Part shown: piece after piece, positions 37,969 through 47,448 of the stretch
Position numbering within the stretch: position 1 is the stretch's first letter
How the letters are laid out: every line of letters starts with the position of its first letter
NCBI GenBank assembly: GCA_003151615.1
Contig: PLXZ01000001.1
Coordinates: forward strand, 134,544 to 198,543
Direction of reading: 5' to 3'
DNA length: 64,000 bases
Source: Candidatus Tayloriibacteriota bacterium
GTDB lineage: Bacteria > Patescibacteriota > Minisyncoccia > Phycocordibacterales > PALSA-1337
Made by a program: the position numbers and the translations under genes
Notes under the pieces: generated by a model
What the model was told of the DNA's origin: nothing
What the model saw: only the letters and a program-made list of their open reading frames with translations
Databases searched by the model: none

Positions 37969-39117
37969 TTATTTTCCAGGTTTCTCGTCGGATTCAGGAA
38001 CGCTCATGGTTCCGGAAGACTGGATATCGATTTTCCAGCCGGTCAATTTTGCGGCGAGACGGACGTTCTGTCCGCCCTTGCCGATGGCGAGCGACTGCTG
38101 GTCATCCGCGACGGTGACGATTGCGCGCGCGTCTTCTTTTTTCAATTCGATTGAAATGACCTTTGCCGGAGAGAGGGCTTCTTCGATGAATTTCGCCGGA
38201 TCCTCAACCCACTCTATGATATCAATTTTTTCGCCGCCAAGCTCGCTGGTAACCGTGTTGACGCGGACGCCGCGCTGGCCGACGAGAGATCCAATCGGAT
38301 CAATGTGAGAATCGACAGAGGCAACAGCGATTTTCGAGCGTGAACCGGCTTCCCGGGCGATTGCTTTTATTTCGACGCTGCCCTGGGCGATTTCCGGAGC
38401 CTCGATTTCAAAGAGTTTTTTCAAAAACTGAGGGTGTGATCGCGAAAGTTTGAGCATGATGCCTTTGGGCGTTTCCTCAACGGCATACAGATATGAACGG
38501 ATACGTTCGCCCTGTTTGTAGCGTTCGCCGGGAATTTGTTCCTCATATGGAATGACGCCGATTGCGCGGCCCATGTCGATGAAAAGGGCTCCGCGTTCAA
38601 CGCGCTGGACCGTTCCGGAGACGATTTCGCCTTCCTTCTGTCCGTATTCGTTCATGACGGATGTTTTTTCGGCCTCGCGAATTTTCTGGATGATGACCTG
38701 TTTTGCGGTCTGTGCGGCAATGCGGCCATAATTATCCTTCAATTCAAGAGGGAAGACGATTTCGTCGTCAATTTTGGCGTCGCGCTTTATTTTTTTCGCG
38801 TCGGCAAGCAACATGTGATGTTCAGGGTTGAAGCGGACTCGGATTTCATCCTGTTCGGTATTTTCGATGTCCTGGTCGGGTTCCGCTTCATCCATGATGA
38901 CTTTCGATTCGTCAACGACGATTTTCACCTGGAAAAATTCAACTTTTCCGGTGTTCATGTCGAAACGCGCGCGGACGATTTGGCCTTTTTTTCCGTATTC
39001 TTTTTTGTACGCGGTCGCGAGGGCGAGTTCGATCGCTTCGAACATCTTATCTTTTGGAATTCCGCGTTCCTGTTCAAGCTGTTCCAAAACCGAGTGTATT
39101 ACTTTTAAGTCAAACAT
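37969..39117 (-). CDS. nusA: Transcription termination/antitermination factor NusA
   Basis: N-terminal NusA domain, S1 domain (EGEIVSGTVQRVERGALFIDMG) and two KH domains (AKLTGWKIDI). Confidence 0.9.
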   Translation of the reverse strand: MFDLKVIHSVLEQLEQERGIPKDKMFEAIELALATAYKKEYGKKGQIVRARFDMNTGKVEFFQVKIVVDESKVIMDEAEPDQDIENTEQDEIRVRFNPEHHMLLADAKKIKRDAKIDDEIVFPLELKDNYGRIAAQTAKQVIIQKIREAEKTSVMNEYGQKEGEIVSGTVQRVERGALFIDMGRAIGVIPYEEQIPGERYKQGERIRSYLYAVEETPKGIMLKLSRSHPQFLKKLFEIEAPEIAQGSVEIKAIAREAGSRSKIAVASVDSHIDPIGSLVGQRGVRVNTVTSELGGEKIDIIEWVEDPAKFIEEALSPAKVISIELKKEDARAIVTVADDQQSLAIGKGGQNVRLAAKLTGWKIDIQSSGTMSVPESDEKPGK

Positions 39118-39296
39118 ATATTTTTGGCCTTATTTAGAGCCATATTTTAAGGGCACTTTGATAATTTTTTGTAAAAAAAGCCCGCCGTGAAGCGAACTGT
39201 CATGTTGACATCTTAGCGCCTTTTGGCGTTTTGTCAAATAGAGCTTGCGTGATAGAATATCTGCATAGAGTTGCTCAACTTCAAATTTTTATAATT

Positions 39297-42005
39297 ATGA
39301 AAAAAATGTTTGGCCGATGTTTTTATATTCTGCCGGCGTTCGCCACAACGGTTTTGGTTTTGATGAGCGTCGCGTTCCAAACTCCTTCTATGGCATTGGC
39401 GAGCACGGCCACTTCTTCGCTTTCCGGCTGGGCATGGTCCGACAATACCGGCTGGCTTTCCTTCAATTCGACTGACAGTGGAGCGGGCGGCAGTCTGTAC
39501 GGTGTGATATTAGCCACAAGCACCGGATCATCTATCGGAACTCTTTCAGGTGACGGCTGGTCTCCCAACATTGGATGGGTCAGCTTCAATTCAAGCGACG
39601 TCACCAACTGTCCTTCAGATCTCGGTGCAACCCTCATCAATGGATGCGTTCCTTCGGTAAATGTGACGACGGGAGCGGTGTCGGGATGGGCGAGGGCGCT
39701 GGCGGGTACGAATAGCACCGGCCTTGTTGTTGCTTCATCAACAGTGCCGGCATGGGATCCCGAGACCCAATTATATGAACAGTTCATAGCGGTTACTAAT
39801 AACACCGGACAAAATCTATCTGGAGCGCGATTGACCATGACGTCTGCGTTGCCGAGCGGCGTTTCAGTCTTTGGCTCATCAGGCGGTACTGATGCCAACG
39901 GCAATATTTATTTCCAGGACAACTATCCTTTATCCGCGGGTCAGACAGTTTATTTTGGCATTGATTTTTACGATCCGACAAATACAAGTTTCAATCCTAA
40001 CTATACGCTTCAGGCAATGGCGACAACTTTGTCCGAGCCAACCATTCCAAGCGGAAGCACCCAGGTTTCGGTAAGCGCCACCTATTATGCAAGTGATCCT
40101 GTTTCTACCTATGTAAATTATAGTGGCCCTATAACTGTTTTGCAGTGGACAAGTATAAGTGGCGATCAATATGGTCTTCAATATAGCGATGACGGAGGCG
40201 TAACTTGGCATACAGCGTACGGTCTAAATAGCACGGCGGTATTAGATACAGCTGGCAGTAGCGCCACAATCCTTCTTGATTTTGGTTTACCAGCAACCGA
40301 TGCAGCCCCTATTTCTACCCGCCAATACAAGATGTGGCAGCTTCCTTCCGGTTCGTATCCCGCAAGAAACTTGAACTGGACGACGCAGGCCGCCGGAAAT
40401 CATTCTTGGTTTGGAATAACATCATCTGCCGATGGCAGCAAACTTGCTGCGGTCGACAACAATACTGGCTACGTATACACCTCCCCTGACAGCGGCGTCA
40501 CATGGACGGCTCAGACGGCTGCAGGTGCTCGTCTTTGGTCAGGAATCACTTCATCCTCAGACGGCACAAAAATCGCTGCAGTTGCTCAAACTGGCATCGT
40601 GTACACATCTGCCGACAGCGGCGTCACATGGACGGCTCACACCGTGAGTGGTGCGACATCATTATATAAAATAACATCATCATCCGATGGTACTAAAATT
40701 GTTGCGGTTGATACCCTAAGTACTGGCGGCTACATTTATACATCTGCCGACAGCGGCGTCACATGGACAGCCCGCACAGCGGCAGGTTCTCGTTCGTGGA
40801 TAGCGGTGACATCTTCTTCCGACGGGACAAAGCTTCTCGCAAGCGATCGTGCTGGAGGTTCACTGTACACATCTTCGGATAGCGGTGCCACATGGACGAC
40901 TCACACATTGGCGGGTGCGTGGTGGTCATTATCCTCATCTGCCGATGGTACAAAGCTGGTCGCCGCAGCGACTCCGAGCGGAAGCTATCTCTACACATCT
41001 GCCGACAGTGGCGTCACATGGACGGCTCGTATTGCAGCCACTGGGGCGTATGGGTGGGGGAGCGTAACTTCTTCTTCGGATGGAACAAAAATAGTCGCAG
41101 GTAATGCTGGCCCGAATGCTTATATTTACACATCTGCCGACAGCGGCGTCACATGGGCGGCGCAAATTCAATCCACAAGTACTTCCCGTATGTGGATGGT
41201 CACGTCATCCGCCGATGGCAGCAAAATAGCGGCGGGAGATTTTTATGGAACTATTCACACGGCGACATCTGTATCAACCACAACAACTGCCAACAGCAAT
41301 TCCGGCTGGGACGGCTGGATAGAACTCTCCGGCACCAACCATGCATCCCCTGATTTAACCGGTAACAGCGGCGTGACCTACAATTCAACCACAGGCTCTT
41401 TCACTGGATACGCATGGGGAAGCGATATCATAGGTTGGCTCAACTTCAACTCATCAGGGGCTTCAGCCTCAAGCTCGTGCAACCCGACATTGGAAGTCTG
41501 CAACGGTCCGGGATCATCCCCGACCCTCTCATGCTCGGGCTCACTCAACGGCAGTACCAACAAAATTACCTGGACCGCGACGATAACCGGCGGAGCCTCC
41601 CCGTATACTTTTGCGTGGACGCCCGGCTCAGGCACTTCAGGAACGCCGTCAACTGTCGGAGCAGTTTCCACCTACACCACCGGTACCCTGGCATCAACCA
41701 GTCCTGCCACCTCGTACTCCGTCACCGTTGCCGCAACCTCAAGCAACCAGACCGTGGCCATATCAAACGCCTGTCCGTCAGTACAGGGACCCCTGCAGTC
41801 GAGCCCTCCAAGCGGCGGACTCTGTACGTCAGTCCCTCCAAACGCCACGCTCTGTCCCGGTTCTTCTGCGGCCACCGGCTCAAGCTCCCTTGTTTCAACC
41901 TGTACCGCAGCAGCAGGAACTCCGATCTGCCAGTACTCGTGCTCTTCAAACTACCACCAGGTTGGCAGCCAATGCGTGGGGAACGGGAGCCTTCAGGAGC
42001 AGTAA
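39297..42005 (+). CDS. Large secreted Asp-box (BNR) beta-propeller protein with a Cys-rich C-terminal region; candidate pilus-associated adhesin
   Basis: Start at MKKMFGRCFYILP (signal peptide). At least 7 tandem blades carry S-x-D-x-G-x-T-W (YTSADSGVTWTA) alternating with TSSSDGTKI(V/A)A. The C-terminus has spaced Cys and PKD-like segments. It ends 19 nt before pilB. Confidence 0.55.
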   Translation: MKKMFGRCFYILPAFATTVLVLMSVAFQTPSMALASTATSSLSGWAWSDNTGWLSFNSTDSGAGGSLYGVILATSTGSSIGTLSGDGWSPNIGWVSFNSSDVTNCPSDLGATLINGCVPSVNVTTGAVSGWARALAGTNSTGLVVASSTVPAWDPETQLYEQFIAVTNNTGQNLSGARLTMTSALPSGVSVFGSSGGTDANGNIYFQDNYPLSAGQTVYFGIDFYDPTNTSFNPNYTLQAMATTLSEPTIPSGSTQVSVSATYYASDPVSTYVNYSGPITVLQWTSISGDQYGLQYSDDGGVTWHTAYGLNSTAVLDTAGSSATILLDFGLPATDAAPISTRQYKMWQLPSGSYPARNLNWTTQAAGNHSWFGITSSADGSKLAAVDNNTGYVYTSPDSGVTWTAQTAAGARLWSGITSSSDGTKIAAVAQTGIVYTSADSGVTWTAHTVSGATSLYKITSSSDGTKIVAVDTLSTGGYIYTSADSGVTWTARTAAGSRSWIAVTSSSDGTKLLASDRAGGSLYTSSDSGATWTTHTLAGAWWSLSSSADGTKLVAAATPSGSYLYTSADSGVTWTARIAATGAYGWGSVTSSSDGTKIVAGNAGPNAYIYTSADSGVTWAAQIQSTSTSRMWMVTSSADGSKIAAGDFYGTIHTATSVSTTTTANSNSGWDGWIELSGTNHASPDLTGNSGVTYNSTTGSFTGYAWGSDIIGWLNFNSSGASASSSCNPTLEVCNGPGSSPTLSCSGSLNGSTNKITWTATITGGASPYTFAWTPGSGTSGTPSTVGAVSTYTTGTLASTSPATSYSVTVAATSSNQTVAISNACPSVQGPLQSSPPSGGLCTSVPPNATLCPGSSAATGSSSLVSTCTAAAGTPICQYSCSSNYHQVGSQCVGNGSLQEQ
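40380..41260 (+). repeat. Tandem ~126-135-nt coding repeats with a near-identical ~30-nt core (ACATCTGCCGACAGCGGCGTCACATGGAC)
   Basis: Core copies start near 40488, 40614, 40749, 40878, 41004 and 41139. Four of them are identical or differ by one base over about 30 nt. Confidence 0.8.
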
Positions 42006-42024: not shown

Positions 42025-43779
42025 ATGTACATTGAACAGGGACAATTAAAAAAGTTCATACTTGATTCGGGTCTTGTCTCGAAGGGTGATGTTGACGCGG
42101 CCGAAGATGAGGCCAAGAAAAAGAAAAGCAGTCTCGGCGAAGTGCTTGTTTCGCAGGGAAAAATCCGCGACGACAATCTGCGCCGCATGCAGGCATACGT
42201 TTTAGGTATCCCTTTTGTCGAATTGAAGTCGAAGAAAATTCCGTTTGAAACGCTCTCACTCATTCCTGAACCGGTTGCGCGTACCAATAATATTGTTGCG
42301 TATAAAAAAACCGACGACACTCTCGAGGTTGCCATGCTCGACGTGGACAATCTTTCTGCGATCGATTTCGTAAAAAAGAAAGTGCATTTGAAGATTTTGC
42401 CGCGTTTGACCGACGAAGAATCGATAAAAAGCGTCATTGTCCAGTATCAGAAAAGTCTCAAAGCCGAATTCGGCGACATTATCCAGAAAGAATCTGAAAC
42501 GTTGAAGGCTATTGCCGAGCAGGACGGCGGCGAACCGGCTAGCGCTGAAGACATGAAGAAAATGGCCGATGATTTGCCGGTGGTCCGCATCGTGGATACT
42601 CTTTTGAAGCATGCCATTTTGCAAAATGCCTCGGACATTCACATTGAGCCTCTTGAAGACCAGGTTTTGGTACGTTACCGTATCGACGGTATTTTGCATG
42701 ACGCCATGGTTCTGCCGAAAAACGCATCGTCATCGGTGACGGCGCGTTTGAAAGTCTTGGCGAATCTCAAACTGGATGAAAAGCGTCTGCCGCAGGACGG
42801 CCGCTTCAAAATCGACATGAATGGAGAAAAAGTTTCGTTCCGCGTTTCGGTTTTGCCGGTCTATTACGGCGAAAAAACAGTCATGCGTCTGTTGCGCGAG
42901 AATGTTTCGGGCTTTACCCTCGAACATTCCGGTTTTCACGGGGAAGGCCTCGAGCGAATTCATCACGCGGTGACGCAAACGACCGGTATGATTTTGACGA
43001 CGGGTCCGACAGGTTCGGGAAAAACGACGACTCTTTACACGGTTTTGGACATTTTGAATACGCCTGACGTCAATATTTCAACAATCGAAGATCCCGTCGA
43101 ATACCAAATGAAACGCGTCAACCAGACGCAGGTGAAGCCGGAAATCGGGTTCACGTTTTCATCCGGTCTGCGCACGCTCGTCCGTCAGGACCCTGACATC
43201 ATCATGGTCGGTGAAATTCGCGACAATGAAACGGCCTCCCTTGCCGTGAATGCCGCATTGACCGGGCACCTCGTGCTCTCGACTCTCCACACCAACAGCG
43301 CCGCCGGAGCGATTCCGCGACTTATCGACATGAAAATCGAGCCGTTTCTCCTCGTTTCGACAATCGACATCATCATTGCGCAGCGTCTCGTCCGCCGTCT
43401 CTCGGAAACAAAGGAAAAACACATTTTGACGAAGGACGAGCGGGCGGTTTTGGCGAAAACCGTCGACCTCGACCGGGTTTTGAAGGCACTGAAGGAGGAG
43501 AAAATCATCGAGGGCAAAAAAGATTGGGATGAGATTCCTTTTTGGAGGCCTGTTTCTGCGGGCGAAGGGGACAATGGATATAAAGGCCGCATTGTCATCG
43601 CCGAAGTTCTCAAAATGAGCCAGCCGATCAAAGAATTGGTCATTAAGGGATCTTCAACCAACGACATCGAGATTCAGGCGAAAAAAGAGGGGATGCTTTC
43701 TATGATTGAAGACGGTATATTTAAGGCAGTGCAGGGCTTGACTACGATCGAGGAAGTCCTGCGCGTCATTTCGGAATAG
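42025..43779 (+). CDS. pilB: Type IV pilus assembly ATPase PilB (GspE family)
   Basis: N-terminal GSPII domain, Walker A TGPTGSGKTTT, and Asp/His boxes (IMVGEIRD, TGHLVLSTLHTN). Confidence 0.9.
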   Translation: MYIEQGQLKKFILDSGLVSKGDVDAAEDEAKKKKSSLGEVLVSQGKIRDDNLRRMQAYVLGIPFVELKSKKIPFETLSLIPEPVARTNNIVAYKKTDDTLEVAMLDVDNLSAIDFVKKKVHLKILPRLTDEESIKSVIVQYQKSLKAEFGDIIQKESETLKAIAEQDGGEPASAEDMKKMADDLPVVRIVDTLLKHAILQNASDIHIEPLEDQVLVRYRIDGILHDAMVLPKNASSSVTARLKVLANLKLDEKRLPQDGRFKIDMNGEKVSFRVSVLPVYYGEKTVMRLLRENVSGFTLEHSGFHGEGLERIHHAVTQTTGMILTTGPTGSGKTTTLYTVLDILNTPDVNISTIEDPVEYQMKRVNQTQVKPEIGFTFSSGLRTLVRQDPDIIMVGEIRDNETASLAVNAALTGHLVLSTLHTNSAAGAIPRLIDMKIEPFLLVSTIDIIIAQRLVRRLSETKEKHILTKDERAVLAKTVDLDRVLKALKEEKIIEGKKDWDEIPFWRPVSAGEGDNGYKGRIVIAEVLKMSQPIKELVIKGSSTNDIEIQAKKEGMLSMIEDGIFKAVQGLTTIEEVLRVISE

Positions 43780-43803
43780 CATTTTAATCTCATTATTTAA
43801 TTC

Positions 43804-45021
43804 ATGGCCCATTTTACTTACACAGCAAAACATCCGGAAGGCGAAACATACATCGGCGAGGCGGAAGCGGCCGATCATTATGAATTATATAAAATGATCC
43901 GCGAGAGCGGCGGGGAGATTGTGTCTTACAAGGAATCAAAAAGGAGCGGGATGCGCAAGATGAACATTTCCCTTTCTTTGGGAAGAATCAAGATGCAGGA
44001 GAAAATAATATTCGCCCGGAATCTCGGCGCCATGATACAGGCCGGACTGGCGGCGTCGCGCGCATTGTCGGTCATGGAGCGCCAGACGAAAAATGCGGCG
44101 ATGAGGAAAATTATAATCGCCCTGAATGAAAATATCAGCAAGGGGAAAACGCTTTCCGACGCAATGGCAGACTATCCGAAGATTTTTTCCGCCCTTTTTG
44201 TCTCCATGACGCGCGCCGGCGAGGAATCCGGAAATTTGGCTGACTCGCTCAAAATTGTCGCGCTTCAAATGGACCGATCGTATGCATTGTCCCGACGAAT
44301 TCGCGGAGCGCTCATATATCCGGCTGTGGTTATCGTGCTCATGATCATCATTTCGATAGTGCTCTTGACCTATATTGTACCTACGCTTACCAGCACATTC
44401 TCCGGATTGAATGTCACTTTGCCGGCTTCGACCCAGTTCATAGTCAACGTCAGCAACATAATAAGGTTTCACGGCATTATTTTGTCCATTGTCGTTATTT
44501 TAATCATCACTCTGTTCGTATGGTGGAAACGCCGGCCGCAAGGGAAGTCAGTCATTGACTATATCGTTCTCAAAATTCCCGTCATGGGCAATATTATCAA
44601 AGAAGTGAATGCGGCGCGCACGGCCCGAACCCTTTCCTCGCTCCTGACTTCGGGCGTTGACATGGTTGAAGCCGTCCGCATTACCACGGATGTCGTACAG
44701 AACGTCCATTACAAAAAAGTTTTACAGACGGCTCAGACGACGATTACAAAAGGAGAGCCGCTCTCGAAAGTTTTCAGCGAAAACGAAAAATTGTATCCGA
44801 CCTTTTTGACCGAGATGATGAGCGTGGGCGAAGAAACCGGAAAAATGGGCGAAATGCTTCTCGGTGTCGCGGTTTTTTACGAGGATGACGTGGAACAGGC
44901 GACGAAGGACATGTCCACGGTCATCGAGCCGCTCATTATGATCGTCATCGGCGCCGGCGTGGGATTCTTCGCGGTTGCCATGATTACGCCGATGTATTCG
45001 CTCGTCAATGTCATTTCATAA
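43804..45021 (+). CDS. pilC: Type IV pilus inner-membrane platform protein PilC (GspF family)
   Basis: 405 aa with two GspF repeats and three TM segments. Its end overlaps the next gene by 14 nt. Confidence 0.85.
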   Translation: MAHFTYTAKHPEGETYIGEAEAADHYELYKMIRESGGEIVSYKESKRSGMRKMNISLSLGRIKMQEKIIFARNLGAMIQAGLAASRALSVMERQTKNAAMRKIIIALNENISKGKTLSDAMADYPKIFSALFVSMTRAGEESGNLADSLKIVALQMDRSYALSRRIRGALIYPAVVIVLMIIISIVLLTYIVPTLTSTFSGLNVTLPASTQFIVNVSNIIRFHGIILSIVVILIITLFVWWKRRPQGKSVIDYIVLKIPVMGNIIKEVNAARTARTLSSLLTSGVDMVEAVRITTDVVQNVHYKKVLQTAQTTITKGEPLSKVFSENEKLYPTFLTEMMSVGEETGKMGEMLLGVAVFYEDDVEQATKDMSTVIEPLIMIVIGAGVGFFAVAMITPMYSLVNVIS

Positions 45022-46816
45022 TTTTAAAAATTCGGGCCGGAAAAATGCAGGTTTTACCCTCGTTGAAGCTGTCGTGGGCAGTTCGGTTTTTCTCATCATT
45101 GCCATTGCCGCCTACCAGGCCTATGCCAGCATTTTTCAGCTTGCCGCTGTGGATCAGAACAAAGTTTTGGCTCTCGAATTGGCAAATGAGCAGTTTGAAA
45201 TCGTCCGCAACTTGCCCTATGCCAACATCGGCGTTCCCAACGGCATTCCCAGCGGCGTGATTCCGCAGAATCAGACTCTCACGCGCGGAAATAGTGCGTT
45301 TACCGTCTCGACGATTGTCCGAAACATAACTATTTCGCTCGGAGCACAGAGCGCGAGTTCGACGGCGAGCACGACTCCCGCGGAAAAGCTCGTCGAAGTT
45401 ACAATTTCATGCGCAACCTGCAAAAATTTTACTCCTTTGGCGCTGACCACCCAGGTTGCCCCGAAAAACATAATTACCGACACGACGCAGGGTGCACTGA
45501 CCATCAATGCCTTTGACGCGAACGGCAATCCGGTTTCCGGCGCCGCGGTGACGGTGATCAACAATAAGGTTACGCCTTCGATTGTCGTGAATGATACGAC
45601 TAATGACAGCGGCGTGCTGAATATTGTCGGCGTCGCGACGGGAACTGCCGCATATCAGATAACCGTTACGAAATCAGGGTATTCGACGGACCAGACCTAC
45701 CCCATATCCGCGACCAACACGACGCCTACGCATCCGAATGCAACCGTGCTCGCCGAACAGGTGACGTCGTCTTCATTTTCAATAGACAAATTAAGCACCA
45801 TTGGAATTTCGAGCGAGACAAATGCCTGCGCGCTCGTGCCGAACGTCGGTTTTACGCTGGTCGGATCAAAAACCATCGGCGCAGGCCTGTCAAAATATGC
45901 CGCAACCAGCACGACGGGGAGCGGCGGACAGCTTACTTTAAATAACATGGAATGGGATACATATACGTTTGGGCTTAACGGCAGTTCGTATGATCTCGCC
46001 GGAATGAATGTCATCAATCCCGTTACCGTCAGCCCAAACAGCACCCAAAACGTGACGCTTGTCCTCACCGCAAAACATCCGGACAGTCTACTCGTCGCGG
46101 TCCAGGACAATTCGACCCTCCTTCCATTGTCCGGAGCCACGGTGACTCTCTCGAATTCATCCGGATATTCCTCGACCCAGACAACGGGTGAAGGTTTTTT
46201 CGACCAAAGCGACTGGTCGGGGGGGCCGGGACAGTCTGATTATGCGACTACGAACCAGTTTTTTTCCACTGACGGAAACGTAAATGTTTCAAATCCGGCA
46301 GGCGATATCAATCTTATAAAATCGGGGAACAATTACATTGCGTCGGGATGGATACAATCCTCGACATTTGATACCGGAACGGCGAGCAATTTCGACAATA
46401 TTATCTGGCAGCCCTCGAATCAGCCGGTTGGAGCCGGGGCCAGTAGCGTGCAGTTGCAAATTGCCACGAGCCCGACTGATACTTCGACGACGACATGGAA
46501 CTTTACCGGTCCTGACGGTACGAGCGGGACATACTATAACGTCTCGAATTCAACGATCAATTCGGCGAATAACGGCAACAGATATTTGCGATACCAGGTA
46601 TTTTTAAATACCCAGTCGGCAACGAATACGCCGGATTTGTCCGATATTGCCTTTACCTACGGGACGTTGTGCACGCCGCCGGGGCAGGTCCTGTTCCAAG
46701 GACTTTCAGCCGGCAGTTATACATTAACCACGAGCGCTCCCGGCTATGCCGGAAATTCCACAGGCGTAACCGTTTCTTCGTCATGGACTCAACAGACGGT
46801 TCCGCTGGGTCCGTAA
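45008..46816 (+). CDS. Giant prepilin-type protein (N-terminal methylation motif)
   Basis: Leader, then G|FTLVEAVVGSSVFLIIAIAAYQAY (class III signal). The 600-aa body is T/S/N-rich. Confidence 0.6.
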   Translation: MSFHNFKNSGRKNAGFTLVEAVVGSSVFLIIAIAAYQAYASIFQLAAVDQNKVLALELANEQFEIVRNLPYANIGVPNGIPSGVIPQNQTLTRGNSAFTVSTIVRNITISLGAQSASSTASTTPAEKLVEVTISCATCKNFTPLALTTQVAPKNIITDTTQGALTINAFDANGNPVSGAAVTVINNKVTPSIVVNDTTNDSGVLNIVGVATGTAAYQITVTKSGYSTDQTYPISATNTTPTHPNATVLAEQVTSSSFSIDKLSTIGISSETNACALVPNVGFTLVGSKTIGAGLSKYAATSTTGSGGQLTLNNMEWDTYTFGLNGSSYDLAGMNVINPVTVSPNSTQNVTLVLTAKHPDSLLVAVQDNSTLLPLSGATVTLSNSSGYSSTQTTGEGFFDQSDWSGGPGQSDYATTNQFFSTDGNVNVSNPAGDINLIKSGNNYIASGWIQSSTFDTGTASNFDNIIWQPSNQPVGAGASSVQLQIATSPTDTSTTTWNFTGPDGTSGTYYNVSNSTINSANNGNRYLRYQVFLNTQSATNTPDLSDIAFTYGTLCTPPGQVLFQGLSAGSYTLTTSAPGYAGNSTGVTVSSSWTQQTVPLGP

Positions 46817-47448
46817 TGTATACTAATATGATGAATCGCCGCACATTTACAAAAGGATTCACGCTCGTCGAGACGCTCGTCGTGGCCCTTATTTTCCTGC
46901 TCATCATGATGGGGGTGACGTCTTTCGAGCGCGACACTTTTTACGATAATTCCATTCAGAACGGATCCTTTTCCACGGTTCAAAGCGCCGAAGAAATTTT
47001 GCGCACAATGGTCACCCAGCTCCGGTCGGCTTCGGAGGGAAGCGACGGATCATATCCGATTCTCACCGCGGCATCAACGACGCTTACGTTTTTCACCGAC
47101 ATAAACGGCGACGGAATAAAGGAACGCGTGCGGTATTTTTTGTCGAGCACTACTTTGGAAGAGGGAATAATGGAGCCGAAGGGCACGCCGCTTTCCTACA
47201 ATAATGCCACGGAAACGATTTCATATATCGCGTATAATGTCCGAAATCTCGCTTCTTCCACGAATGTCTTTGATTATTACGACGATACATATAATGGGAC
47301 AAGCTCGCCCCTGACTCAGCCGGTTTCCGTTTCTGCGGTGCGTCTCGTAAAAATAACTCTCATTCTGGATCTGAACCCGAACGTGTCGCCGGGTCCGAGA
47401 ACGTATACGACGCAGGTCAGCCTGAGGAATCTTAAAGACAATCTATGA
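46816..47448 (+). CDS. Prepilin-type (pseudopilin/minor pilin) protein
   Basis: KG|FTLVETLVVALIFLLIMMGV after a short leader. The ATG at 46816 overlaps the upstream stop (TAATG); alternative ATGs are at 46828 and 46831. Confidence 0.6.
   Translation: MYTNMMNRRTFTKGFTLVETLVVALIFLLIMMGVTSFERDTFYDNSIQNGSFSTVQSAEEILRTMVTQLRSASEGSDGSYPILTAASTTLTFFTDINGDGIKERVRYFLSSTTLEEGIMEPKGTPLSYNNATETISYIAYNVRNLASSTNVFDYYDDTYNGTSSPLTQPVSVSAVRLVKITLILDLNPNVSPGPRTYTTQVSLRNLKDNL

What the first reader, a model, noticed from the sequence alone, without database searches (positions are those of the whole stretch)
40380..41260. Near-identical ~30-nt cores recurring every ~126-135 nt inside the propeller gene
Six or more blade-encoding units share an almost invariant DNA core, ACATCTGCCGACAGCGGCGTCACATGGAC, identical at synonymous positions. 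Divergent repeats would not preserve this. It implies ongoing concerted evolution, such as gene conversion or slippage. The locus is therefore likely length-variable between strains, a possible phase or antigenic variation mechanism. It is also a likely site of assembly collapse.
Basis: seen in the sequence. Interest (0 to 1): 0.5.

Follow-up and report, generated by a model that had tools for sequence, protein, structure and literature searches.

The report
Homogenised Asp-box cores in propeller gene
Four to six blades of a seven-bladed propeller domain in a secreted, pilus-operon protein of a Patescibacteria genome share a ~30-nt stretch that is identical even at silent positions; this is most likely ordinary short-patch gene conversion between repeats, and nothing shows that it switches or varies the protein.

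Summary
The repeat is real but overstated. The motif YTSxDSGxTW occurs six times, 126-135 nt apart. Four copies match the quoted 29-mer with 0-1 mismatch; two have 4 and 5. The longest exact repeats are 26-30 nt. Silent-site identity in the core is far above expectation (0.75 versus a null mean of 0.41, p<=2e-4). The equally conserved SSxDGxK motif of the same blades is scrambled at silent sites.

The core codons are not the genome's preferred ones. The core has no exact match in GTDB representative genomes or JGI metagenomes, forms no notable RNA structure, and lies under no overlapping ORF. Of 75 homologous propeller genes, 42 show within-gene codon homogenisation, each with its own version, sometimes at one motif only.

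Short-tract intragenic gene conversion therefore fits best. Unit-number variation, phase or antigenic variation and assembly collapse are not supported.

The region is a seven-bladed Asp-box propeller. It is nested inside a fast-evolving secreted protein encoded directly upstream of pilB. At least ten syntenic relatives (PilB 84-96% identical) lack the propeller. The locus does vary between lineages, but by insertion of whole domains.

The parts
39297..42005 (+). Gene for a 902-aa secreted protein (P0001). Layout: signal peptide, scaffold with repeated GWxWSxxxGW motifs, inserted beta-rich domain, inserted propeller, and a Cys-rich C-terminal part with an Ig-like segment.
   Evidence: The ORF list gives the frame. 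The exact protein is on record as 902 aa. A promoter-like site at 39231-39258 favours the ATG at 39297 over the TTG at 39231.
39231..39258 (+). Sigma-70-like promoter match (TTGTCA, 16-nt spacer, TAGAAT, with TG extension) upstream of the gene.
   Evidence: Consensus scan, 10 of 12 positions. This is a pattern match only, not evidence of function.
39297..39401 (+). Predicted Sec signal peptide (MKKMFGRCFYILPAFATTVLVLMSVAFQTPSMALA|S).
   Evidence: Read from the translation. This is an inference; no predictor was run. No prepilin N_methyl motif is present.
39735..40385 (+). First inserted domain (~aa 147-363), beta-rich and unnamed. It contains one lone Asp-box.
   Evidence: It is absent from the syntenic orthologues. 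It sits at the same scaffold position in P0333, P0336, P0337, P0338 and P0342. It has 181 homologues at E<=1e-3 among 1.84 billion representatives.
40179..40214 (+). Lone Asp-box (YSDDGGVTWHTA) outside the propeller. It is not homogenised with the cores (GGC GTA ACT TGG).
   Evidence: Pfam BNR hit at aa 317-328 of the 924-aa ORF, 24 bits, below the cut-off of 27. Sequence read.
40383..41282 (+). Seven-bladed Asp-box beta-propeller (aa 385-684 of the 924-aa ORF). This is the module the finding lies in. Relative to domain-only homologues, the insertion limits are about 40386-41294.
   Evidence: AlphaFold2 model with pLDDT 88.6, pTM 0.89 and 27 strands. The top Foldseek PDB hit is Ycf48, 5oj3, E 1.7e-12, TM 0.72. 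The alignment shows it is absent from all scaffold homologues.
40479..40507 (+). Core copy 1 (blade 1): 4 mismatches to the 29-mer. It shares 26 exact nt (40488-40513) with copy 2.
40605..40633 (+). Core copy 2 (blade 2): exact.
40740..40768 (+). Core copy 3 (blade 3): exact.
40869..40897 (+). Core copy 4 (blade 4): 5 mismatches. This is the least homogenised copy.
40995..41023 (+). Core copy 5 (blade 5): 1 mismatch (AGC to AGT, silent).
41130..41158 (+). Core copy 6 (blade 6): 1 mismatch (ACG to GCG, Thr to Ala).
40425..41225 (+). Seven SSxDGxK motifs, one per blade (starts 40425, 40554, 40680, 40815, 40938, 41073, 41208). The amino acids are invariant but silent sites are scrambled. They serve as the internal control.
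   Evidence: codon identity 0.19-0.52 per column
41295..42005 (+). C-terminal scaffold part (DGWDGWIELSG ... CQYSC ... GNGSLQEQ). It aligns to the C-terminal half of the 372-377-aa syntenic orthologues.
37969..39117 (-). nusA, the conserved left flank (87-95% aa identity to relatives).
42025..45021 (+). pilB (42025-43779) and pilC (43804-45021). pilB starts 19 nt after the gene, and no + strand terminator-like site lies between them.
45008..47448 (+). Two pilin-like genes with a prepilin N_methyl motif (45008-46816 and 46783-47448).
   Evidence: Pfam PF07963 hits of 22.2 and 21.5 bits against a cut-off of 21.2.

Best explanation
The ~30-nt cores encode the Asp-box hairpin (YTSADSGVTW) between strands 3 and 4 of blades 1-6 of a seven-bladed beta-propeller. 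They are kept near-identical by occasional short-tract, non-reciprocal recombination (gene conversion) between blades of the same gene. Conversion starts where protein constraint already keeps the DNA most alike. It is stopped within a few tens of nucleotides by the mismatched flanks. This makes a self-reinforcing island of identity while the rest of each blade drifts to saturation at silent sites. The pattern is a passive by-product of repeat architecture that recurs in this propeller family. It is not a dedicated variation device. What is shown: the statistical excess of silent-site identity, its restriction to the core, its gene-specific nature across homologues, and the absence of alternative constraints. 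What is inferred: the recombination mechanism itself. The protein is probably a surface or pilus-associated binding protein. The propeller is a lineage-specific cargo domain nested in a variable loop of a conserved scaffold encoded as the first gene before pilB.
For: Core codon identity is 0.67-1.0 against 0.2-0.5 in the equally invariant SSxDGxK motif of the same blades. Monte Carlo gives p<=2e-4; z is 10.7 for the Asp-box and 1.5 for the control motif. The core codons are not the preferred ones. The free positions of the motif are also homogenised: Ala in 4 of 6 copies and Val in 5 of 6, where the family mostly has Thr and Ala. Identity tracts have different end-points for different unit pairs. 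Units 1 and 2 share only the 3' part plus downstream bases, units 2 and 5 share 37 nt, and units 3 and 6 share 33 nt with upstream bases. This mosaic is expected of conversion. Of 75 homologous genes, 42 show significant within-gene codon homogenisation: both motifs in 22, SSxDGxK only in 8, Asp-box only in 12. L007 has 100% codon identity at the Asp-box and 0.34 at the control motif. Each gene has its own version. Within-gene identity is 0.53 and between-gene 0.33, and no other gene shares more than 6 of the window's 10 house codons. The 27-mer has no exact match in 185,579 species-representative genomes or in JGI metagenomes.
Against: No orthologue of this propeller exists in the collections. 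The classical test (paralogous blades closer to each other than to orthologous blades) could not be done. Recombination was not observed directly. Across the family the Asp-box is not significantly more homogenised than the other motif (Wilcoxon p=0.09), so why this gene is affected only at the Asp-box is unexplained. Gene-specific selection on codons cannot be formally excluded.
Confidence: 0.6

Rival explanations
1. Selection acts on silent sites. Specific codons at the Asp-box hairpin would be favoured, for example for decoding accuracy or for translation speed during folding of each blade. All blades would then converge on the same codons without recombination.
For: The homogenised stretch coincides with the structurally critical hairpin. 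In L007 every core codon ends in C, which resembles a decoding preference.
Against: The equally invariant SSxDGxK turn of the same blades shows no codon preference. The window's core uses rare codons: TCT is 10% of Ser and ACA 23% of Thr. House codons differ between genes, and in 8 genes only the other motif is homogenised. The non-constrained residues x1 and x2 are homogenised too. The lone Asp-box at 40179 uses other codons.
Confidence: 0.12
2. The cores are maintained as recombination joints for programmed or contingency variation. Slippage or unequal exchange between them would add or remove whole blades in frame and change a surface protein.
For: All spacings are multiples of 3, so exchange between cores would keep the frame and produce hybrid blades. 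The exact repeats of 26-30 nt are about the minimal length for homologous pairing (my own knowledge of RecA-dependent recombination). The gene sits in a locus that differs strongly between related genomes and is linked to type IV pilus genes.
Against: No strain variant of this gene exists to show any length difference. In seven homologue clusters with 98-99.9% identical variants, no blade-sized indel was seen. One of these genes (P0047) has 26 exact repeats of 20-38 nt. In-frame changes cannot switch the gene on or off. There is no perfect tandem array, no inverted copies, and no silent cassettes in the window. The differences seen between relatives are presence or absence of whole domains, not blade counts.
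Confidence: 0.08
3. The blades were recently amplified from a single blade, and the cores are simply the part that has not yet diverged.
For: New beta-propellers, including Asp-box ones, are repeatedly amplified from single blades (PMC9218822). L008 shows whole-blade near-identity.
Against: Outside the core, silent sites of identical residues are at the random expectation (0.40 observed, 0.34 expected). The blades are therefore old. Neutral divergence would not spare one 30-nt patch.
Confidence: 0.03
4. The pattern is due to chance, codon bias or an assembly artefact.
For: The gene comes from metagenome assemblies.
Against: Monte Carlo gives p<=2e-4, and shuffled sequence gave no match. The ENA contig and the window are identical over 13,342 nt including the whole gene. 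Patches of 30 nt are too short to be created by assembly.
Confidence: 0.02

Closest known systems
Repetitive beta-propellers amplified from single blades (Pereira & Lupas 2022, PMC9218822; for example the WRAP domain of Npun_R6612)
   Same: It is a bacterial propeller whose blades share nucleotides specific to one gene. Asp-box propellers are one of the three main hubs described in that paper.
   Different: In those cases whole blades are near-identical, and this is read as recent amplification. Here only ~30 nt per blade is identical and the rest is saturated at silent sites. That requires later homogenisation, not recent amplification.
Intragenic concerted evolution of repeats by gene conversion or unequal exchange, for example spider silk spidroin repeats (PMC3933166, title and abstract only) and repeat-bearing bacterial surface proteins (my own knowledge)
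   Same: Within-gene similarity exceeds between-gene similarity at silent sites, and repeats are homogenised within one ORF.
   Different: The tract is very short and confined to one structural motif. The units are otherwise diverged. No copy-number polymorphism is documented.
Ycf48 and other seven-bladed Asp-box (BNR) propellers
   Same: It has the SxDxGxTW hairpin between strands 3 and 4 and is seven-bladed. Ycf48 is the top structural match (E 1.7e-12, TM 0.72) and a weak sequence match (E 4e-4).
   Different: Identity is 14-17%. The domain is embedded in a secreted multidomain protein of a non-photosynthetic Patescibacteria genome. There is no functional link to photosystem II.
Type IV pilus-associated propeller adhesins: PilY1 of Pseudomonas and PilX2 of the saccharibacterium TM7x (PMC11623550)
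   Same: It has a seven-bladed propeller and is encoded with type IV pilus genes. In TM7x the propeller-bearing PilX2 is needed for efficient host binding. One homologue, P0038, fuses this propeller family to a pilin N-terminus.
   Different: The window protein has a Sec-type signal peptide, not a pilin N-terminus. PilX2 has an RCC1-type propeller, not an Asp-box one. No binding function has been tested.
Shufflon of plasmid R64 (Rci recombinase acting on sfx repeats inside the pilV adhesin gene; my own knowledge)
   Same: Short conserved DNA repeats lie inside the coding region of a pilus-linked protein gene.
   Different: Shufflon repeats are inverted and flank invertible segments next to a dedicated recombinase. 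Here all six cores are direct, and no inverted copy exists.

Membership tests
Asp-box (BNR) beta-propeller | Repeated SxDxGxTW motif, one per blade | tested here: met
   There are six YTSxDSGxTW motifs at 42-45-residue spacing.
Asp-box (BNR) beta-propeller | Four-stranded blades closed into a ring, with the motif in the hairpin between strands 3 and 4 | tested here: met
   The AlphaFold2 model has pLDDT 88.6, pTM 0.89 and 27 strands forming 7 blades. The motif lies between the third and fourth strands of each blade. Ycf48 is the best PDB match.
Asp-box (BNR) beta-propeller | Pfam family score above the curated cut-off | tested here: inconclusive
   The window protein scores below cut-off: BNR 24 bits, BNR_6 16.7 and PSII_BNR 11.5, all against 27. 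The homologue P0089 passes Sortilin-Vps10 (69 against 33) and PSII_BNR (33 against 27).
Intragenic concerted evolution (gene conversion between repeats) | Silent-site similarity is higher within the gene than between homologous genes | tested here: met
   Codon identity is 0.53 within genes and 0.33 between genes across 80 genes. The window scores 0.74 against an expected 0.31.
Intragenic concerted evolution (gene conversion between repeats) | Patchy tracts with variable end-points on a diverged background | tested here: met
   Tracts of 20-37 nt have different limits for different unit pairs, and the flanks are saturated.
Intragenic concerted evolution (gene conversion between repeats) | Paralogous repeats are closer to each other than to orthologous repeats in a sister genome | not testable with these tools
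   No orthologue of the propeller was found. The best hits are 48-58% identical over the propeller only, and the syntenic relatives lack the domain.
Repeat-number contingency or phase-variable locus | Perfect or near-perfect tandem units that mispair easily | tested here: not met
   TRF finds no array. Units are 63-73% identical, and exact tracts are 30 nt or less.
Repeat-number contingency or phase-variable locus | Unit-number differences between strains or reads | not testable with these tools
   No second strain of this gene is available and reads cannot be accessed. Indirectly, seven homologue clusters show no blade-sized indels.
Repeat-number contingency or phase-variable locus | Length change shifts the frame or the promoter spacing to give an on/off switch | tested here: not met
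   All spacings are multiples of 3 and lie inside the ORF.
Shufflon-type site-specific inversion system | Inverted repeat pairs flanking invertible segments, with an adjacent recombinase | tested here: not met
   All matches to the core are on the + strand. The genes adjacent to it are nusA, pilB and pilC. Recombinase genes elsewhere in the window were not searched for.
Diversity-generating retroelement target | A template repeat elsewhere that matches the variable region, plus a reverse transcriptase | tested here: not met
   There is no second copy of any part of the repeat region in the 64-kb window. The rest of the genome was not available.
Type IV pilus-associated propeller adhesin (PilY1 / PilX2 type) | Encoded within a pilus gene cluster and carrying a seven-bladed propeller | tested here: met
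   The gene ends 19 nt before pilB on the same strand. pilC and two N_methyl pilin-like genes follow.
Type IV pilus-associated propeller adhesin (PilY1 / PilX2 type) | Pilin-like N-terminus or homology to the PilY1 or PilX2 propeller | tested here: not met
   The Pfam scan of the protein gave no N_methyl hit. The N-terminus reads as a Sec signal peptide. The propeller is of Asp-box type, closest to Ycf48.
Type IV pilus-associated propeller adhesin (PilY1 / PilX2 type) | Demonstrated role in adhesion or pilus function | not testable with these tools
   This needs experiments.

The most novel reading that the evidence does not exclude
The Asp-box cores are not just a by-product. In this propeller family, micro-conversion islands at the structural hairpins would be kept because they allow in-frame exchange, replacement or gain and loss of blades. 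The propeller here is itself a swappable cargo domain in an insertion-prone loop of a pilus-operon scaffold protein. Together these would form a two-level system (domain swapping plus blade shuffling) for rapid retargeting of host recognition in epibiotic Patescibacteria.
Probability: 0.07. Interest if true: 0.6.

Novelty: new member of a known kind. Interest (0 to 1): 0.27.

Why it matters
The repeat itself is of modest importance. It is a clean example of concerted evolution confined to ~30 nt per repeat on a background saturated at silent sites, and the survey shows that such gene-specific patches are common in Asp-box propeller genes. This bears on how repeat-level nucleotide signatures are read. 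Positions shared by all blades of one propeller have been taken as evidence of independent amplification (PMC9218822). Here they must come from later homogenisation. The context may matter more. A fast-evolving secreted protein encoded as the first gene before pilB exists in at least three architectures: scaffold only, scaffold plus one domain, and scaffold plus that domain plus a propeller. The insertions lie in one loop. That makes it a candidate variable host-recognition factor in Patescibacteria, whose host-attachment mechanisms are largely unknown.

Tried and rejected
1. Codon bias: rejected, because the core codons are not the preferred ones.
2. A conserved nucleotide element: rejected. 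The 27-mer has no exact match in genome contigs or metagenome contigs, no 12-mer of the core occurs elsewhere in the window, and house codons differ between genes.
3. RNA structure: six cores from five genes fold no better than shuffles, with z from -0.67 to +0.40. Rfam reports only four tRNAs, far from the region.
4. Overlapping-gene constraint: only short alternative-frame ORFs of 41-79 aa cross the region, and none spans all the cores.
5. Silent cassettes or a DGR template: no other copy exists in the window.
6. Shufflon-like inversion: there are no inverted copies.
7. Direct strain comparison failed. The protein is a singleton cluster on two contigs.
8. The word-indexed protein search with the first inserted domain found nothing. 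The exhaustive HMMER search was needed.
9. Indirect test of blade-number stability in homologue clusters. Three of the four genes whose DNA I fetched have almost no exact repeats, so only P0047 is a fair comparison.
10. Base composition does not mark the insertion as foreign.
Full report
**Observation**

Window 40380-41260 lies inside one ORF, 39297..42005 on the + strand. The ORF encodes 902 aa from the ATG; a TTG at 39231 would give 924 aa. The protein has six YTSxDSGxTW (Asp-box/BNR) motifs and seven SSxDGxK motifs in 42-45-residue units.

The quoted 29-mer is exact at 40605 and 40740 and has one mismatch at 40995 and 41130. Shuffled sequence gave no match. In-register copies at 40479 and 40869 carry 4 and 5 mismatches. 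Start-to-start spacing is 126, 135, 129, 126 and 135 nt.

Whole units are only 63-73% identical, and Tandem Repeats Finder reports no array. The longest exact repeats between units are 26-30 nt.

**Is it more than chance or codon bias?**

I aligned the units codon by codon and considered only unit pairs with the same amino acid.
- In the core, identical codons make up 0.67-1.0 of pairs.
- In the equally invariant SSxDGxK motif of the same blades, they make up only 0.19-0.52.

I then redrew codons from the gene's own usage. The best 10-codon window scored 0.75, against a null mean of 0.41 and a maximum of 0.62 in 5000 draws, so p<=2e-4.

The core codons are not the preferred ones. TCT is 10% of Ser codons and ACA 23% of Thr codons in the window. 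Outside the core, silent sites are at the random expectation (0.40 observed, 0.34 expected). The blades are therefore old, and only a ~30-nt patch is young or constrained.

**What the region is**

An AlphaFold2 model of aa 385-684 is confident (pLDDT 88.6, pTM 0.89). It shows 27 strands forming seven four-stranded blades, with the Asp-box between the third and fourth strands of each blade. The best PDB match is Ycf48, a seven-bladed Asp-box propeller (E 1.7e-12, TM 0.72). There is also a weak sequence match to Ycf48 (E 4e-4).

Pfam hits on the window protein are below the curated cut-offs. Homologues are abundant: 949 proteins at E<=1e-5, with 48-58% identity over the propeller only. They occur in Patescibacteria, Verrucomicrobiota, Planctomycetota, Nitrospirota and other phyla.

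**Context**

The gene lies between nusA (37969-39117, - strand) and pilB (42025-43779). pilC follows, then two genes with prepilin N_methyl motifs. pilB starts 19 nt after the gene, and no + strand terminator-like site lies between them. A promoter-like site sits at 39231-39258.

Proteins 84-96% identical to this PilB exist in many metagenomes. Their contigs keep the same gene order (trigger factor, pyrophosphatase, nusA, gene X, pilB, pilC, pilin-like genes). Gene X there encodes only 372-377 aa, and 449 aa in one case.

These short proteins align to residues 1-154 and 670-902 of the window protein at 30-50% identity. NusA is 87-95% identical and PilB 84-96%. The window protein is therefore a conserved scaffold with about 515 extra residues in one loop, between "GWARA.AGT" and "DGWDGWI.L.G".

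An exhaustive HMMER search with the first 214 inserted residues found 181 homologues. Several 660-780-aa proteins (P0333, P0336, P0337, P0338, P0342) have the same scaffold plus this first domain but no propeller. The propeller, about 40386-41294, is thus a second, nested insertion. It was seen only in this genome, and it coincides almost exactly with the finding's coordinates.

**Why the cores are alike**

Several alternatives were tested and rejected.
- A universal nucleotide element: the 27-mer has no exact match in 185,579 species-representative genomes or in JGI metagenomes. No 12-mer of it recurs in the window.
- RNA structure: the cores fold no better than shuffles.
- An overlapping gene: no alternative-frame ORF spans the cores.
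- Other copies: there are no inverted copies and no other blade copies in the window.

I then analysed 80 homologous loci. Each gene has its own "house" Asp-box DNA.
- L007, from a Saccharimonadales genome, has 100% codon identity in the Asp-box and 0.34 in the control motif.
- L005, L010 and L034 behave similarly.
- L008 has whole blades homogenised.

Of 75 genes that could be scored, within-gene codon identity exceeds expectation (z>4) at both motifs in 22, at SSxDGxK only in 8, at the Asp-box only in 12, and at neither in 33. Asp-box codon identity is 0.53 within genes and 0.33 between genes. The window's house codons are rare in the family (GCC in 1 of 79 genes, GTC in 5 of 79). The free residues of the motif are also more alike within genes than between them.

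In the window, identity tracts end at different points for different unit pairs. Together these results point to concerted evolution by short-tract conversion. Conversion would start where protein constraint keeps the DNA most similar, and the mismatched flanks would stop it.

Recent amplification from one blade, the process documented for many propellers in PMC9218822, cannot explain a patch this small on a saturated background. Codon selection remains possible but fits poorly. The equally conserved second motif is unaffected, the chosen codons are rare, and in other genes the other motif is the one affected.

Unit-number variation could not be tested directly. The protein is a singleton cluster on two contigs, and no orthologue of the propeller exists in the collections.

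An indirect test was possible. Seven homologue clusters contain variants 98-99.9% identical from different samples. All their length differences are terminal, and none is blade-sized. Three of the four genes whose DNA I fetched lack long exact repeats, so they say little. P0047 has 26 exact repeats of 20-38 nt and is still collinear in five variants.

In-frame spacing rules out an on/off switch. Assembly collapse is unlikely for identity tracts of 37 nt or less. The ENA contig and the window are identical across the gene and over 13,342 nt in all. They diverge only in the last ~360 nt of the contig, inside pilB.

The locus does vary between lineages, but by insertion of whole domains and by rapid divergence of the scaffold. 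A short poly-Ala tract also varies in length among near-identical strains of the short orthologue.

**Function (inference)**

The protein has a Sec-type signal peptide and is encoded as the first gene before pilB. A propeller is displayed from a variable loop. These features suggest a surface or pilus-associated binding protein.

The closest functional analogues are PilY1 and the propeller-bearing PilX2 of TM7x, which is needed for efficient host binding (PMC11623550). One homologue, P0038, fuses this propeller family to a pilin N-terminus. The window protein is not a member of those families: it has no pilin N-terminus, and its propeller is of a different type.

**Verdict**

This is a real and statistically solid but ordinary case of intragenic concerted evolution. 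It is a new member of a known kind. The variation and assembly inferences are unsupported. The nested domain insertions in a hypervariable gene linked to pilus genes are the more interesting by-product.

Noticed in passing
window 39735-41294, compared with L082, L083, L085, L088, L090, L092, L096, L097, L098: The gene between nusA and pilB encodes 372-377 aa (449 aa in L098) in all syntenic relatives found. The window version has about 515 extra residues in one loop. The scaffold is only 30-50% identical, while NusA and PilB are 84-96% identical. This is a hypervariable gene between conserved flanks.
   Followed up: yes
P0333, P0336, P0337, P0338, P0342 compared with window 39735-40385: A third architecture exists: the same scaffold plus the first inserted domain (with its lone, conserved QYSDDGG.TW Asp-box) but no propeller. 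The propeller is therefore a nested second insertion. The first domain has no Pfam name apart from a sub-threshold BNR hit at that lone Asp-box, and it has 181 homologues, often at protein C-termini.
   Followed up: partly
L082:4820-5947, L083:4829-5947, L085:4823-5947: Near-identical strains of the short orthologue differ in a poly-Ala run near the C-terminus (SGSAAANN, SGSAAAAANN and SGSAAAAAANN, giving 372, 374 and 375 aa). This is true strain-level length variation by a trinucleotide-type repeat, in the orthologue rather than in the window gene.
   Followed up: no
window 42639-43000 (L001:13343-13704): The ENA contig k141_1990104 is identical to the window for 13,342 nt. It then accumulates 93 mismatches in its last ~360 nt, inside pilB, and ends. 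A second PilB, 89% identical, occurs in the same sample (L091). Co-occurring relatives appear to break or chimerise the assembly in the conserved pilB, not in the propeller repeats.
   Followed up: partly
P0038 (1165 aa): This homologue carries a type IV pilin N-terminal motif (FTLIELLVV, Pfam N_methyl) fused to propellers of the same family. The propeller family can therefore be displayed on pili.
   Followed up: no
window 41562-41792 (aa 756-832 of the 902-aa protein): The C-terminal scaffold region gives weak sequence matches to phage 'decoration protein' chains (5lxk_A E 1.7e-4, 8zvi_a E 4.6e-3). It probably shares an Ig-like fold.
   Followed up: no
cluster of P0002 (P0243 with P0247, P0249 with P0242): In some assemblies a 1599-aa homologue is called as two adjacent genes on one contig (1101+472 aa and 1255+289 aa). 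This suggests frameshifts, stop codons or assembly errors inside a multi-propeller gene.
   Followed up: no
window 39231-39258: A promoter-like site (TTGTCA, 16-nt spacer, TAGAAT, with TG) overlaps the upstream TTG that the mechanical ORF list uses as the start. The ATG at 39297, which gives the 902-aa product on record, is the more likely start.
   Followed up: partly
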